Part shown: positions 15,341 to 19,310 of the stretch, one piece after another
Layout: every line of letters starts with the position of its first letter
Numbering within the stretch: position 1 is the first letter of the stretch
NCBI GenBank assembly: GCA_965216465.1
Contig: CBDCFW010000001.1
Coordinates: 288,001 to 352,000, forward strand
Direction: 5' to 3'
Origin: Bacteroidia bacterium
Lineage (GTDB): Bacteria > Bacteroidota > Bacteroidia > NS11-12g > UBA9320
DNA length: 64,000 bases
Program-made: the position numbers and the translations under genes
Notes under the pieces: model-generated
Told to the model about the DNA's origin: nothing
What the model saw: only the letters and a program-made list of their open reading frames with translations
The model's database searches: none

Positions 15341-15348
15341 TATATTTG
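15341..15348 (+). promoter_or_regulatory. -7 promoter element (TATATTTG) for the leader/rtcB operon
   Basis: Exact TAnnTTTG with TTTG/TTG runs upstream (15315-15326); immediately precedes a long hairpin. Confidence 0.65.
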
Positions 15349-15353
15349 TAGTG

Positions 15354-15420
15354 CAATTCTGGAAGACTCTAAGTTCAACAAGATTTTTGTAAATGTTTTG
15401 AATTCTTAGTCCTAGAGTTG
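15354..15420 (+). other. Long imperfect RNA hairpin at the predicted 5' end of the rtcB-operon leader
   Basis: Nested pairings CAAUUCUGG/CUAGAGUUG, GACU/AGUC, AAG/CUU, UUCAA/UUGAA, AUUU/AAAU (with G-U pairs). Confidence 0.5.
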
Positions 15421-15457
15421 GCTAAATAAAAGTTTAAAAAATTTAAATAACACTAAA

Positions 15458-15532
15458 ATGAATCTGTATAAGACAACGACAATTTGGGGCACGAAACCTC
15501 CTTTTGTAAAAAACGGTTATCAGAAATTTTAG
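15458..15532 (+). CDS. Putative leader peptide (24 aa, MNLYKTTTIWGTKPPFVKNGYQKF)
   Basis: ATG preceded by A-rich AAATAACACTAAA; TAG at 15530-15532; last codons carry the antiterminator strand. Confidence 0.6.
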   Translation: MNLYKTTTIWGTKPPFVKNGYQKF

Positions 15533-15592
15533 GCGACAAATAAACGAATTTGAAGGCCCGATTTCTGATAACGAAATCGGGCTTTTTATTTT
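15516..15592 (+). terminator. Transcription attenuator: intrinsic terminator with overlapping antiterminator
   Basis: Terminator GCCCGATTTC (15556-15565)-TGATAAC-GAAATCGGGC (15573-15582)-TTTTTATTTT. GTTATCAGAAAT (15516-15527) is the exact reverse complement of ATTTCTGATAAC (15561-15572). Confidence 0.8.
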
Positions 15593-15678
15593 AACAAAGC
15601 ACATGAGAAAAGAAAAACAAACCTAAGATCCACTGACATTTTTACTTGAATGTCTGTGGACTACAAAAACAAGTAAAA

Positions 15679-16614
15679 ATGAACAACGAAGAAATTCAGT
15701 GGATTAAGAGTTGTTTACCAAGTCAAATCTCTTATTCCTATTACAAAGACTTATATGCTCTTGACTTACTTCAATATTGTTTCGAAGACGGAACGAAGAT
15801 TCAAGACATTAAGAAATCAAAACTTGGTGGTTTACTGAATAAGCCAATTGTTAAGCAAATAGTGCAACAATGCGGTAATGGTAAGCTCGATATGAGTAAA
15901 GTTGAAGGGCATTGGGAAAAACATCCCCATGTATTGAAGTTAACTTTAGATGAGTGGGGTTCCATTTCAAAACGAAAAGGAAAAACACAATGGGACCAAG
16001 TAAGCAGACCCGAAAAAAATCTTGTTCTTCAAGTAAATTTTGGTAGTGAGCACAAATTACTATTCAATAAAAAACTTGGAGAAAATAACCGAGATGCGTT
16101 TGAACGGCACTTACACCCTATTCACGCCGAACATTATACCCTAGGTTGGATTCGGCTAGATATCAATATTGAGCATAATGAATTACTAATTGAAGAGATT
16201 CAAGCAGATTGGACGAGAGACGTACTCGAGTTATATGATCGTTTGAATTGTACTAAATCTTGTTGCACAGGTCATTGGATAAAACCGTTTAAAGGAAAAT
16301 TTGAGGCTTACATGAAGTTCCTCAACCCTTACATCAAGATTAAAGATGAAATGTTACTAGCGGCAGCTCTCCACTTTACGAAGTGTGAACTCGGTATCGA
16401 CCATGTCTGGTATCATTCAAACCAAAGTAACATTCACTACAAACTCATGAAAGGGCAATTTCCTCCAAAATCGGTTTACCAGCAATTACCTAAAAAATTT
16501 GGGTTCAGTAAAACAACTAATAAACCGCGTTTGATCCAAGACTGTTCTGCACTAGAGGCATTGAACAAAAAAGGAAAAAACGTACCGTTTTACCATTTAA
16601 AATTAGGAAAATGA
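15679..16614 (+). CDS. Hypothetical protein (311 aa) coupled to rtcB
   Basis: Long ORF with A-rich start context at MNNEEI; conserved-looking NLVLQVNF, TLGWIRLD, LIEEIQADW, PPKSVY motifs; ATGA overlap with rtcB. Confidence 0.85.
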   Translation: MNNEEIQWIKSCLPSQISYSYYKDLYALDLLQYCFEDGTKIQDIKKSKLGGLLNKPIVKQIVQQCGNGKLDMSKVEGHWEKHPHVLKLTLDEWGSISKRKGKTQWDQVSRPEKNLVLQVNFGSEHKLLFNKKLGENNRDAFERHLHPIHAEHYTLGWIRLDINIEHNELLIEEIQADWTRDVLELYDRLNCTKSCCTGHWIKPFKGKFEAYMKFLNPYIKIKDEMLLAAALHFTKCELGIDHVWYHSNQSNIHYKLMKGQFPPKSVYQQLPKKFGFSKTTNKPRLIQDCSALEALNKKGKNVPFYHLKLGK

Positions 16615-18014
16615 AGAATAGAATAATACGAGGAAATCACTTGAAGAAATTTGGAATTACCAATCCAAAACAAATTAGCATGATTCTCGAAACCTTGCGC
16701 AAGCAGTACAAGCGTGAAAGCTTTAATGCTAAGCTTAGTCTGGTTCAGAAGGTTGTTTCTAATGCAAACGAATACATAAGTGATGACATTTGGGGAAGCT
16801 TGGCGTCACAACTTGTAACCACGGCACCTCAAGTGCCAGACACTTTGCAACTCCAAACGGCGAGACCTTATGCTGTTTTCGGTGAGGAGAATATTTCGGA
16901 AAATGCAAAACACCAAATGTATCAGGCAATGAAGCTACCTGTAACTGTTCAAGGGGCTTTAATGCCAGACTCTCACCATGGATATGGACTTCCAATTGGA
17001 GGAGTATTGGCAACAAAGAATGCAATTATACCCTATGCAGTTGGGGTTGACATTGGGTGCAGAATGTGCCTAAGTATCTTTAGAGATTCACCAACCGTTT
17101 TGGAGTCTCACGCCGATCAGTTTGAAAAGGTGTTACGAGAGCATACTAAGTTCGGTTTAAGAGAAACGCACGAGCGTCCTAACGATGCAGAAGTGCTACA
17201 TCGCAGTTTGTATCAAGAGATTCCAATGCTTAAGCAACTTCAAAAGCGTGCAGCAATGCAGCTTGGCACATCTGGAGCAGGAAATCACTTTGTAGAATTT
17301 GGTATTGTAACCATCAATGAAGATAGCAAAGAGCTTGATTTTAAAAAAGGACAATACCTGGCTCTGTTATCGCATTCAGGTTCACGAGGACTTGGTGCGA
17401 ACATTGCCAAACACTACACTAGACTTGCTAGCAACAATAGTCGTTTACCAAAAGGAGTTAGAAATCTAGCATGGCTTGATCTCAACTCTGAAGAAGGTAT
17501 GGAATATTGGCTCGCAATGAACCTAGCTGGAGATTATGCCTCTGCATGTCACCACGATATACATAATCGAATTGCGAAAGTTTTAAAACTTCAAGCGAAA
17601 ACAGTGGTTGAAAATCATCACAATTTTGCTTGGAAAGAGAAACTGGCAAATGGAGATGAAGTTATCGTGCATCGAAAAGGAGCAACGCCTGCAGGTGAAG
17701 GAGTGTTGGGTATTATACCTGGCAGCATGACAGCGCCTGGATACATTGTTAAAGGATTAGGAAATTCCGCGAGTATCAGTTCTGCAAGTCATGGTGCGGG
17801 CAGAACGATGAGCCGGGGTGCGGCCAAGCAAGGAATATCCAAAGATGCCATGAAAAAAGCATTGAAGCAACACAACGTTCGCCTTATTGGTGGTGGTGTC
17901 GACGAAGCACCTATGGCCTATAAGGACATAAACACAGTAATGAGCTATCAGCAAGATTTGGTTGAAATCTTAGGAAAATTCACTCCAAAGATTGTTCGAA
18001 TGGCTAGAGAATAA
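16611..18014 (+). CDS. rtcB: RtcB family RNA ligase
   Basis: MPDSHHGYGLPIGGV, VGVDIGC, QLGT..GNHFVE, HSGSRG, HHN, HRKGAT, PGSM, SASHGAGR, DEAPMAYK. Confidence 0.96.
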   Translation: MKNRIIRGNHLKKFGITNPKQISMILETLRKQYKRESFNAKLSLVQKVVSNANEYISDDIWGSLASQLVTTAPQVPDTLQLQTARPYAVFGEENISENAKHQMYQAMKLPVTVQGALMPDSHHGYGLPIGGVLATKNAIIPYAVGVDIGCRMCLSIFRDSPTVLESHADQFEKVLREHTKFGLRETHERPNDAEVLHRSLYQEIPMLKQLQKRAAMQLGTSGAGNHFVEFGIVTINEDSKELDFKKGQYLALLSHSGSRGLGANIAKHYTRLASNNSRLPKGVRNLAWLDLNSEEGMEYWLAMNLAGDYASACHHDIHNRIAKVLKLQAKTVVENHHNFAWKEKLANGDEVIVHRKGATPAGEGVLGIIPGSMTAPGYIVKGLGNSASISSASHGAGRTMSRGAAKQGISKDAMKKALKQHNVRLIGGGVDEAPMAYKDINTVMSYQQDLVEILGKFTPKIVRMARE

Positions 18015-18017
18015 CCT

Positions 18018-18063
18018 GTCTAAGATTAAGTCTGAGCTATGTTCAATAGACTTAGTCTTAGAC
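18018..18063. repeat. 16-bp inverted repeat between rtcB and the TPR gene
   Basis: GTCTAAGATTAAGTCT (18018-18033) / AGACTTAGTCTTAGAC (18048-18063), 15/16 Watson-Crick plus one G-U. Confidence 0.75.
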
Positions 18064-18079
18064 TTAATTGAGACAAAAA

Positions 18080-18601
18080 ATGAGACCATATAATGAATCC
18101 CATATCGACCGATTGTACTTAAACGCACGTGATATGCTGAACGAAAATAAGGCACCTGAAAGCGTTGAAGTTCTAATCGAAATACTTTGCGAAGACCCAT
18201 GCTATGCTAGAGCGCACACCATGCTTGGTCATATCTATAGCAATATCTTAGTTAACCTAGAAAGAGCCGAAAAACACTATCTGCTTGCGCTTAAATATGC
18301 CAAAGGCTATCCTTATGTGGTAAGCGAATATGCTCGGCATTTATTGGATTGTAATAAGACCAGCGAGTTAATTTTATTCGTTGATGAGCACAGAAACCAA
18401 TTAGGTGTAGATCAAGCTCTATTGCACTTGCTAAAAGGTAACGCTTTAGAAATGAAGGGCCATTTGCACAAAGCAATTAAATGCTACAAGTTGGCCAAAA
18501 TAATAGGTCTTAATATAGATTTCGTAAGAAACGTTGACCATCACATGGACCGTGTAAAAATGAAAATGAGTCGTTTAGCTTGGGCTTATGCAATGTTTTA
18601 G
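18080..18601 (+). CDS. Cytoplasmic TPR-like helical protein
   Basis: DP.YARAHTMLGHIY...AEKHY..AL and LLKGNALE..G...KAI..Y TPR patterns. Start taken at MRPYNE. Confidence 0.78.
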   Translation: MRPYNESHIDRLYLNARDMLNENKAPESVEVLIEILCEDPCYARAHTMLGHIYSNILVNLERAEKHYLLALKYAKGYPYVVSEYARHLLDCNKTSELILFVDEHRNQLGVDQALLHLLKGNALEMKGHLHKAIKCYKLAKIIGLNIDFVRNVDHHMDRVKMKMSRLAWAYAMF

Positions 18602-18627
18602 AATTCTCCCTCCTCGGAGGGGGAATT
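18602..18627. terminator. GC-rich hairpin between the convergent TPR gene and trmD
   Basis: AATTCTCCCTC-CTCG-GAGGGGGAATT; only weak U-tracts. Confidence 0.55.
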
Positions 18628-19310
18628 TATTCTTCATCCAGTAAGTCTGGACGTCTTTCTTGCGTTAACTTTAAAGCTTGTTCGTACCTCCAAGCATCAA
18701 TGTTTGCAAAATGACCGCTGAGCAGGATATCGGGCACCTTCCATCCTTTAAATTCTGCTGGTCTCGTATAAACTGGAGGAGCAAGTAAATCATCTTGAAA
18801 ACTATCCGTAAGTGCAGATTCTTCGTCCGATATTACCCCCGGAATAAGTCTGCATATTGCATCTGTCACGGCTACTGCAGCAATTTCACCTCCACTCAAA
18901 ACATAGCTTCCAATGGAAATTTCTTTTGTGATTAGATGATCGCGAATTCGTTGATCAATGCCTTTGTAATGTCCGCAAAGAATAATAATATTCTTCTTTA
19001 ACGAGAGCTGATTTGCCGTTTTCTGATCGAACAGTTCTCCATCCGGACACATGTAAATTATTTCATCGTAATCTCGCTCTTTTTGTAAGGCTTCAATACA
19101 GGCGAAAACAGGTTCACAGCGAATGACCATGCCGGCTCCTCCCCCATAAACAGTATCGTCGACCTGCTTATAATTTCCTAAACCATAGTCTTTGAGATTG
19201 TGTAATACGATTTCTACAATGCCTTTGTCCTTGGCCCGCTGAACTATGCTGTGATTCAAAGGGCTTTCCATCAATTGAGGCTGAACAGATATGATGTCTA
19301 TGCGGTGCAT
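18627..19310 (-). CDS. trmD: tRNA (guanine37-N1)-methyltransferase TrmD
   Basis: [46 protein letters not shown]. Confidence 0.98.

What the first reader, a model, noticed from the sequence alone, without database searches (positions are those of the whole stretch)
15341..18601. Candidate ribosome-stalling-sensing RNA repair operon: leader-peptide attenuator + unknown gene + rtcB + TPR
Seen: promoter TATATTTG, 5' hairpin, 24-codon uORF, mutually exclusive antiterminator/terminator, a 311-aa unknown gene overlapping rtcB by ATGA, and a TPR gene, all co-oriented and closed by a hairpin at 18602. Known: RtcB ligates 2',3'-cyclic/3'-phosphate ends to 5'-OH ends. Characterised bacterial rtcB loci are controlled by RtcR/sigma54 and travel with rtcA, prfH or Ro60/Y RNA; none of these is adjacent here. 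Inference: a three-gene RNA/ribosome repair module switched on directly by failing translation (tRNA or rRNA cleavage, ribosome antibiotics) through attenuation, with two uncharacterised partners. It sits beside rpsP-rimM-trmD.
Basis: partly seen in the sequence, partly recalled or inferred. Interest (0 to 1): 0.82.

Follow-up and report, generated by a model that had tools for sequence, protein, structure and literature searches.

The report
Ribosome-gated RNA repair operon, new partner
An RNA-repair ligase gene sits behind a leader of tiny reading frames that probably switch it on only when ribosomes fail, next to an unstudied gene that travels with such ligases in many bacteria and may be a missing repair enzyme.

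Summary
The leader has a promoter motif, a 24-codon uORF and a terminator whose 5' arm pairs with the uORF tail. This antiterminator covaries across 9 related leaders (10 of 16 pairs change on both sides, 0 of 500 shuffles). A ribosome reaching the stop codon would favour termination, so failed translation means ON. The 311-aa gene heads a widespread family with no Pfam or NCBIfam match, a GNAT-like fold (Z 8.9) and no canonical CoA loop. It lies within 6 kb of rtcB in 56 of 80 genome loci, across three RtcB clades. RtcB is intact and carries a CCA-enzyme-tail-like N-terminus (weak support). The TPR gene is optional (5 of 10) and the trmD adjacency is not conserved. Leader-peptide control of an rtcB-like gene has precedent (P. 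aeruginosa armZ-prfH). Expression and the new protein's chemistry are untested.

The parts
15341..15348 (+). Bacteroidota-type -7 promoter motif (consensus TAnnTTTG recalled, not from a call)
   Evidence: same position in 8 related leaders, TATATTTG in 6 and TTAATTTG in 2
15359..15420 (+). Decayed tier 1: 16-codon CTG-started frame (15359-15409) at the position of uORF1 of relatives; terminator 1 eroded; folds as the 5' hairpin
   Evidence: relatives L001 and L006 have a 16-codon TTG uORF at the same offset followed by an intact terminator
15458..15532 (+). Tier 2 leader uORF, 24 codons, with a Pro-Pro pair; length (23-26) and stop position conserved, peptide not
15516..15572 (+). Antiterminator: uORF tail 15516-15527 (+15531-15534) pairs with terminator 5' arm and loop 15561-15572 (+15556-15559)
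15556..15591 (+). Intrinsic terminator (10-bp stem, -15.5 kcal/mol, U tail), 23 nt after the uORF stop
15603..15626 (+). Tier 3 uORF, 7 codons, ending 52 nt before the next ATG
15629..15681 (+). Tier 3 switch: hairpin 15629-15660 versus a 12-bp helix 15637-15648 with 15670-15681 that buries the start codon of the 311-aa gene
15679..16614 (+). 311-aa protein of an unnamed family (here U311): helical N-terminal part plus GNAT-like domain (about 84-311), basic (pI 9.1), invariant Q107, H146, W157, R159, E172, E173, Q175, D177, K255, Y267
16611..18014 (+). [quoted passage not shown]
18016..18074 (+). Long intergenic hairpin without U tail (-25.6 kcal/mol) between rtcB and the TPR gene; role unknown
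18080..18601 (+). 173-aa TPR protein, optional accessory of this RtcB subtype
18601..18628 (.). Hairpin between the TPR gene and the convergent trmD

Best explanation
An accessory RNA-repair operon of a Bacteroidia family that is switched on when translation fails. Regulation (structure shown, function inferred, about 80%): in unstressed cells a ribosome coupled to RNA polymerase runs to the end of the 24-codon uORF and covers its tail, so the terminator folds and transcription stops. If ribosomes are absent, late or arrested before about codon 19, the tail pairs with the terminator's 5' arm and transcription reads through. A 7-codon uORF adds a second gate (about 60%): a ribosome at its stop opens the hairpin and lets a 12-bp helix bury the start codon of U311; rtcB is probably translationally coupled to U311 through ATGA. 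Relatives stack a further attenuator in front, three gates of one polarity. Output: RtcB re-seals RNA broken by metal-independent nucleases (family knowledge, active site intact, about 90%), with tRNA the likelier substrate because of the CCA-tail-like extension (about 50%). U311 is most likely an RNA-directed enzyme with a remodelled GNAT fold that acts on the same damaged tRNA or ribosome pool, modifying or unblocking the substrate for ligation or reuse (inferred, about 45%). The TPR protein is an optional scaffold.
For: Antiterminator: 88.9% of cells paired, 10 of 16 pairs with changes on both sides, 0 of 500 shuffles, slid controls 37-48%; terminator 98.9% paired. In nascent RNA the terminator 5' arm is sequestered with P 0.73-0.98 when free and 0.0-0.5 with a ribosome on the last codons, in the 8 tier-2 leaders that call scored. 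Stop-to-stem spacing is 21-29 nt in all 16 units of that call while the peptides differ. Tier 3: uORF of 5-8 codons ending 43-52 nt upstream in 10 of 10 leaders (background 82 of 2301 genes); 1:2 hairpin at most 6 of 300 shuffles in 10 of 10; anti-start helix at most 6 of 500 in 9 of 10. A uORF plus terminator also precedes rtcB in 14 of 29 other Bacteroidota loci lacking U311. U311-rtcB linkage: 56 of 80 genome loci within 6 kb, 54 same strand within 1.6 kb; 63 of 80 carry some repair or translation-stress marker; 39 of 80 metagenome loci, 25 of 33 with longer flanks; rough chance level 0.9%. Three RtcB clades and both gene orders. In the family U311 is in 10 of 66 genomes and the extended RtcB in the same 10 plus one. 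Fold: pLDDT 92.5; nearly all of the top 50 of 48,161 chains are GNATs, best Z 8.9, rmsd 3.6, 125 aligned. 16 invariant columns in 80 homologues; median pI 9.2.
Against: No expression data. At equilibrium the full leader favours the terminator even without a ribosome (P 0.64-1.00 for tier 2, with loose stem limits; MFE), so read-through needs a co-transcriptional trap. Duplex energies omit loop closure. The tier-3 footprint switch is strong only in the window (0.92 to 0.18 unpaired) and L007 (0.87 to 0.25), modest in four and absent in L002, L005, L086 and L092; L004's anti-start helix is at chance (220 of 500). Tier-1 antiterminators are individually weak (10-192 of 500). The 9-10 leaders are kin, so covariation overstates independence. 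24 of 80 U311 loci have no rtcB within 6 kb and 17 of 80 no marker at all; only the best 80 of at least 433 and 80 of at least 139 hits were examined, and the two sets share some contigs. Most RtcBs do without U311: 45 of 301 phylum genomes hold this subtype, none of 29 fetched loci has U311 within 1.5 kb, and U311 is in 4 of 401 class genomes. The GNAT match is middling (Foldseek best E 0.019) and the Gly-rich CoA motif appears in 7 of 152 homologues. The CCA-tail match is weak (E 0.0037, two unrelated chains score slightly better; Z 4.6).
Confidence: 0.6

Rival explanations
1. Same regulation, but U311 is an acetyl-CoA-dependent acetyltransferase of a protein (ribosomal protein, RtcB) or of a ribosome-targeting antibiotic. 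It shares the operon because it answers the same stress, not the same substrate.
For: GNAT hits include RimI, GCN5, Nat and streptothricin acetyltransferases. The conserved YxxLPxxFxF stretch (149 of 153) sits where GNAT motif B lies (recalled). GNAT genes are in the Anabaena translation-stress regulon with rtcB (PMC10272220).
Against: Canonical CoA-binding motif in only 7 of 152 homologues. An invariant acidic EExQxD, His and Arg cluster is unusual for small-molecule GNATs (inference). The neighbours are repair genes (slipin 20, prfH 9, tRNA arrays 8, HNH 6 of 80).
Confidence: 0.2
2. U311 is a non-catalytic adaptor or activator that hands RNA to RtcB or recycles it, an archease-like role on a dead GNAT scaffold.
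For: Overlap with rtcB by ATGA and 44 of 80 loci within 450 nt; basic surface; lost CoA loop.
Against: It pairs with three deeply split RtcB clades, which argues against one fixed interface. The many invariant polar residues look catalytic.
Confidence: 0.15
3. The leader is not a translation sensor: an ordinary terminator or a ligand or protein-driven switch, with incidental short ORFs in AT-rich DNA.
For: The terminator wins at equilibrium; the peptides are not conserved.
Against: Start, length and stop position of three uORFs are conserved with different stop codons; the antiterminator covaries; it ranks first of 28 in the genome; no Rfam family at gathering score.
Confidence: 0.1

Closest known systems
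P. aeruginosa PA5471.1-armZ (PA5471)-prfH (PA5470) (PMC12057347, passages read)
   Same: RtcB-like gene behind a leader peptide with proposed transcription attenuation, induced by ribosome-targeting antibiotics.
   Different: ArmZ acts as MexZ anti-repressor and travels with prfH. Here there is no prfH, a different RtcB subtype, up to three stacked uORF gates, and U311.
Mycobacterial whiB7 uORF attenuator (PMC10274678, passages read)
   Same: Same polarity: efficient uORF translation gives the terminator, poor translation the antiterminator.
   Different: It controls a transcription factor with feedback; one Ala-rich uORF; no repair genes.
B. subtilis vmlR leader (PMC9226507, abstract and outline only)
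   Same: Transcription and translation attenuation layered in one leader.
   Different: It needs drug-specific stalling to block an anti-antiterminator; the output is an ABCF protein.
Bacteroidetes rtcB-prfH-TPR neighbourhoods with RFR-unk1/2 and PolB NTase (PMC6514570, section 2.4 and supplement part 120 of 132 read)
   Same: Probably the same RtcB subtype and a related TPR (E 1e-7 to the TPR after prfH in L102).
   Different: No prfH here. U311 does not match the 246-aa charged protein that I take to be RFR-unk2 (Probab 0.6; that identification is inferred from position). The passages read mention no leader.
RtcR/sigma54 rtcBA and rsr-yrlBA-rtcBA operons; Anabaena TrcR regulon with tRNA L-arrays (PMC10272220, PMC8421152, passages read)
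   Same: RtcB induced by translation or RNA damage; slipin, HNH and tRNA arrays are also the commonest U311 neighbours elsewhere.
   Different: Protein regulators instead of an RNA switch; rtcA, rtcR and TROVE were not found in this genome.
GNAT acetyltransferases; GNAT-like domains in large phage proteins
   Same: Core topology; best predicted-structure hits are segments of 1000-1200 aa viral proteins, E 1.1e-5 (unnamed), and one labelled large polyvalent protein at E 1.7e-3.
   Different: No sequence-level family match; a helical insert replaces the CoA loop; extra N-terminal helical part.

Membership tests
RtcB RNA ligase | PF01139 over the curated cut-off | tested here: met
   274.9 bits against cut-off 27
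RtcB RNA ligase | Metal-binding and guanylylation motifs (D65, D95, C98, N202-H203, H234, H329-N330, H404 in P. horikoshii numbering, recalled) | tested here: met
   all aligned and invariant in 18 homologues
RtcB RNA ligase | GTP/Mn-dependent ligation activity | not testable with these tools
   needs biochemistry
RtcB2-PrfH module | prfH adjacent; RtcB of the TIGR03073 type | tested here: not met
   TIGR03073 153 bits against cut-off 272; no TIGR03072 match over cut-off in the genome; separate clade in the tree
RtcR/sigma54 rtcBA or Ro60-linked operon | rtcR, rtcA or TROVE gene present | tested here: not met
   none found in the 100%-complete genome
Ribosome-dependent transcription attenuator (whiB7/PA5471.1 polarity) | uORF overlapping a conserved antiterminator that excludes the terminator | tested here: met
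Ribosome-dependent transcription attenuator (whiB7/PA5471.1 polarity) | uORF translated; read-through rises under translation stress | not testable with these tools
   needs ribosome profiling and 3'-end mapping
Amino-acid-specific attenuator (trp type) | Conserved run of control codons | tested here: not met
   peptides differ; only Pro-Pro is shared, in the three closest leaders
GNAT acetyltransferase | GNAT core fold | tested here: met
   Z 8.9, rmsd 3.6, 125 aligned; top 50 almost all GNAT; middling strength
GNAT acetyltransferase | Motif A [QR]xxGx[GA] after beta-4 | tested here: not met
   7 of 152 homologues have any match within 70 aa
GNAT acetyltransferase | Acyl-CoA-dependent transfer | not testable with these tools
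   needs an assay
Class II CCA-enzyme tail domain (RtcB N-terminus) | Sequence and fold homology | tested here: inconclusive
   profile E 0.0037 to 4x4w 363-411; CCA tails at ranks 1, 3 and 6, Z 4.3-4.6; PF13735 in 1 of 19 members at E 0.015
RFR-unk2 (Burroughs and Aravind) | Homology to the charged protein upstream of rtcB-prfH | tested here: inconclusive
   no match to the positional candidate; the paper's own RFR-unk2 sequences were not fetched

The most novel reading that the evidence does not exclude
U311 is the founding member of a new class of RNA-repair enzyme: a GNAT-derived fold with a rebuilt active site (EExQxD, His, Arg) that removes or adds a chemical group on toxin-damaged tRNA so that RtcB can seal it. 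Here it works with a tRNA-elbow-binding RtcB and is released only when up to three serial ribosome-sensing gates all report failure.
Probability: 0.3. Interest if true: 0.85.

Novelty: new variant of a known kind. Interest (0 to 1): 0.64.

Why it matters
What bacterial RtcBs repair in vivo, and what their accessory genes do, is still largely open. This locus gives three testable handles. First, a family with 988 clusters at 50% identity, no Pfam or NCBIfam model and clear invariant residues, which follows RtcB across three clades and five phyla. Second, an RtcB subtype found in 45 of 301 Bacteroidota genomes with a possible tRNA-anchoring domain. Third, an RNA-only sensor of translation failure that seems to stand in for RtcR across many Bacteroidota rtcB and rtcB-prfH operons and here is stacked in series, a design that should sharpen the response. 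The regulatory principle and the repair operon are known kinds; the partner family and the stacked leader were not found in the papers I could search.

Tried and rejected
U311 names: no Pfam or NCBIfam family at E 0.1; PHROGs only E 0.009 or worse in at most 2 of 30 members; no PDB sequence match below E 1.6; Atlas hits only 'hypothetical protein' clusters and no named hit. Longer or fused forms of 630-2000 aa: none, weak evidence. None in viral contigs or phage records. RtcB + U311 complex prediction: no answer, score 0.00, neither for nor against. No RNA holder listed. No Rfam family or tRNA in the window. One search used a structure misregistered by two columns and was redone. One search used loose terminator limits and was redone, which missed L003 tier 2 and found nothing in L007. 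L007 was left out of alignment A2 because its tier-2 hairpin lacks a U tail. Tier 3 is not general: 3 of 71 other U311 loci, equal to background, and 0 of the 10 testable other rtcB leaders. 8 of 10 genomes with unlinked U311 hold an rtcB elsewhere, which says little because rtcB is common. The RtcB tree is the quick version with long-branch warnings; no U311 tree was built. Burroughs and Aravind 2016 (NAR 44:8525), the main survey of RtcB neighbours, is not held and may already list U311 or the CCA-tail fusion. Paper searches; none listed a paper on this family or leader (listings only, unless a paper is cited as read). PMC5512222 passages describe polyvalent-protein GNATs as RimI-like with no RtcB link. 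PMC7790460 had none of my five terms. The PMC4007540 passages were unrelated. Earlier scan findings: nothing.
Full report
Observation. The layout is as described: promoter motif 15341, uORF 15458-15532, terminator stem 15556-15582, 311-aa ORF 15679-16614 (U311) overlapping rtcB 16611-18014 by ATGA, TPR ORF ending 18601, hairpin 18601-18628, then the convergent trmD-rimM-rpsP (names from my reading of the translations). The closest relatives are titled Bacteroidia. No Rfam family or tRNA lies in the window.

The attenuator. The last five codons of the uORF pair with the terminator's 5' arm and loop as a perfect 12-bp helix: -20.0 kcal/mol against -7.4 +/- 2.3 for shuffles, 0 of 500. Among 250 intergenic terminators of the genome, 28 have a uORF and a downstream gene, and this one has the strongest antiterminator. 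Nine other genomes of the family carry U311. I aligned tier 2 of the window and 8 of them, leaving out L007, whose hairpin lacks a U tail. The antiterminator is 88.9% paired with 10 of 16 pairs changed on both sides, 0 of 500 shuffles, slid controls 37-48%; the terminator is 98.9% paired. These sequences are kin and the structure came from the window, so the test leans favourable. The peptides (23-26 aa) are not conserved. Masking a ribosome footprint on nascent RNA lowers sequestration of the 5' arm from 0.73-0.98 to 0.0-0.5 only on the last five or six codons. The polarity is therefore finished translation = OFF. Against this, the terminator dominates at equilibrium on the full leader, so the switch must be kinetic.

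Eight relatives have a first unit directly behind the promoter: a TTG-started uORF of 16-19 codons, then a terminator with a U7 tail 22-29 nt later. Sequestration falls from 0.75-0.99 to 0.0-0.3 at the stop, though the duplexes are individually weak (10-192 of 500). In the window this unit survives as a 16-codon CTG frame with an eroded terminator. After terminator 2 all 10 leaders have an ATG uORF of 5-8 codons ending 43-52 nt before U311 (background 82 of 2301 genes). It is followed by a hairpin (at most 6 of 300 shuffles in 10 of 10) whose inside can instead pair with the U311 start region (at most 6 of 500 in 9 of 10). In the window that helix is 12 bp and includes the ATG; start-region accessibility goes from 0.92 to 0.18 as the ribosome reaches the stop. 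The modelled switch is weak or absent in most relatives. This tier is confined to the family. A single uORF plus terminator precedes rtcB in 14 of 29 other Bacteroidota loci, many of them rtcB-prfH-TPR operons.

U311. It has no Pfam or NCBIfam match. A profile finds 988 clusters at E 0.001 or better. At least 433 genome stretches encode a relative; I examined the best 80. rtcB lies within 6 kb in 56 of 80 (54 same strand within 1.6 kb; 39 of 57 with full flanks). Slipin occurs in 20, prfH in 9, three or more tRNAs in 8, HNH in 6, RtcR in 2 and TPR in 6; 63 carry some marker and 17 none. Metagenome loci, the best 80 of at least 139 and partly the same contigs, give 39 of 80 and 25 of 33 with longer flanks; a rough chance level is 0.9%. 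The partners fall in three RtcB clades (prfH-type, gammaproteobacterial, Bacteroidota-extended), plus one locus grouping with this genome's second RtcB, with either gene order (quick tree). The link is one-way: U311 is in 4 of 401 class genomes while the extended RtcB is in 45 of 301 phylum genomes. Within the family the two co-occur in 10 genomes of 66, and one more has the RtcB with prfH instead. The model (pLDDT 92.5) matches GNATs almost exclusively, best Z 8.9, rmsd 3.6, 125 aligned, and segments of large viral proteins (E 1.1e-5). The Gly-rich CoA loop is absent (7 of 152); a helical insert follows the invariant EExQxD. With H146, R159, K255 and Y267 invariant and a median pI of 9.2, I infer an RNA-directed enzyme, but a shared fold shows no function.

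RtcB and TPR. RtcB passes Pfam's cut-off and keeps its catalytic motifs. It is below the PrfH-linked model's cut-off. Its N-terminal 70 residues resemble the class II CCA-enzyme tail by profile (E 0.0037) and by fold (ranks 1, 3 and 6, Z 4.3-4.6). That tail anchors the tRNA elbow (PMC3925840, passages). The evidence is weak but two-fold, and points to tRNA. The TPR gene is in 5 of the 10 family operons, always right after rtcB, and has relatives beside this RtcB without U311. The genome lacks rtcA, rtcR, TROVE and a prfH over cut-off and has a second rtcB between slipin and RlaP.

Comparison. Leader-peptide attenuation of an RtcB-like gene is proposed for P. aeruginosa armZ-prfH (PMC12057347, passages). 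The same polarity is described for whiB7 (PMC10274678, passages), and layered transcription and translation attenuation for vmlR (PMC9226507, abstract). TPR and unknown genes beside Bacteroidetes rtcB-prfH are listed in PMC6514570 (section 2.4 and one supplement part); U311 does not match the positional candidate for RFR-unk2. tRNA arrays, HNH, slipin and rtcB are co-induced by translation stress in Anabaena (PMC8421152, PMC10272220, passages). Ten paper searches listed no description of U311, of the stacked leader or of the tail fusion. The 2016 survey most likely to hold one could not be read.

Verdict. A real, conserved translation-failure switch on an RNA-repair operon, a variant of known kinds. 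Its most valuable part is an unnamed GNAT-like family tied to RtcB across phyla. Shown: sequence anatomy, covariation, linkage, fold class. Inferred: induction, tRNA substrate, U311 chemistry. Interest 0.64.

Noticed in passing
G000:C6:443869-451379 (L093 and upstream): Second rtcB system in the same genome: a divergent 576-aa gene that looks like a WYL-type regulator (my reading, not scanned), a stretch of tRNA-like sequences (read by eye), slipin, rtcB and RlaP nucleotidyltransferase.
   Followed up: partly
L093:3602-4081 (minus strand): Another promoter-proximal 25-codon uORF plus terminator (gap 26 nt, antiterminator -12.5, rank 3 in the genome) in front of a 108-aa gene with no Pfam match, convergent on the second rtcB operon.
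   Followed up: partly
L100, L102, L105-L111, L114-L117, L121: Bacteroidota rtcB operons without U311, many with prfH and TPR, carry a 25-30 codon uORF and a CCCGAAG-type terminator; several peptides end in an LRGxxxS-like tail.
   Followed up: partly
L029, L039, L062, L077, L025: U311 homologues lie beside long tRNA arrays (13, 20, 22, 19 and 7 genes), mostly with HNH, slipin or rtcB, like stress-induced L-arrays.
   Followed up: partly
L060, L069, L074: In three alphaproteobacterial loci U311 sits among genes that look like guaB, an RsmB-type methyltransferase and guaA (my reading, not scanned), with no rtcB nearby.
   Followed up: no
L076:6001-7939: Two tandem U311 copies upstream of an rtcB that is split into two tblastn pieces.
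   Followed up: no
L071: Two rtcB-like genes within 6 kb; the one next to U311 was called in two pieces.
   Followed up: no
L005:5620-5920: About 300 extra bases with a palindromic repeat-like element inserted between terminator 2 and uORF3, leaving both tiers intact.
   Followed up: no
window 18016-18074: Long perfect-looking hairpin without U tail between rtcB and the TPR gene; may stabilise or punctuate the mRNA.
   Followed up: no
L108: The extended rtcB carries one in-frame TAG.
   Followed up: no
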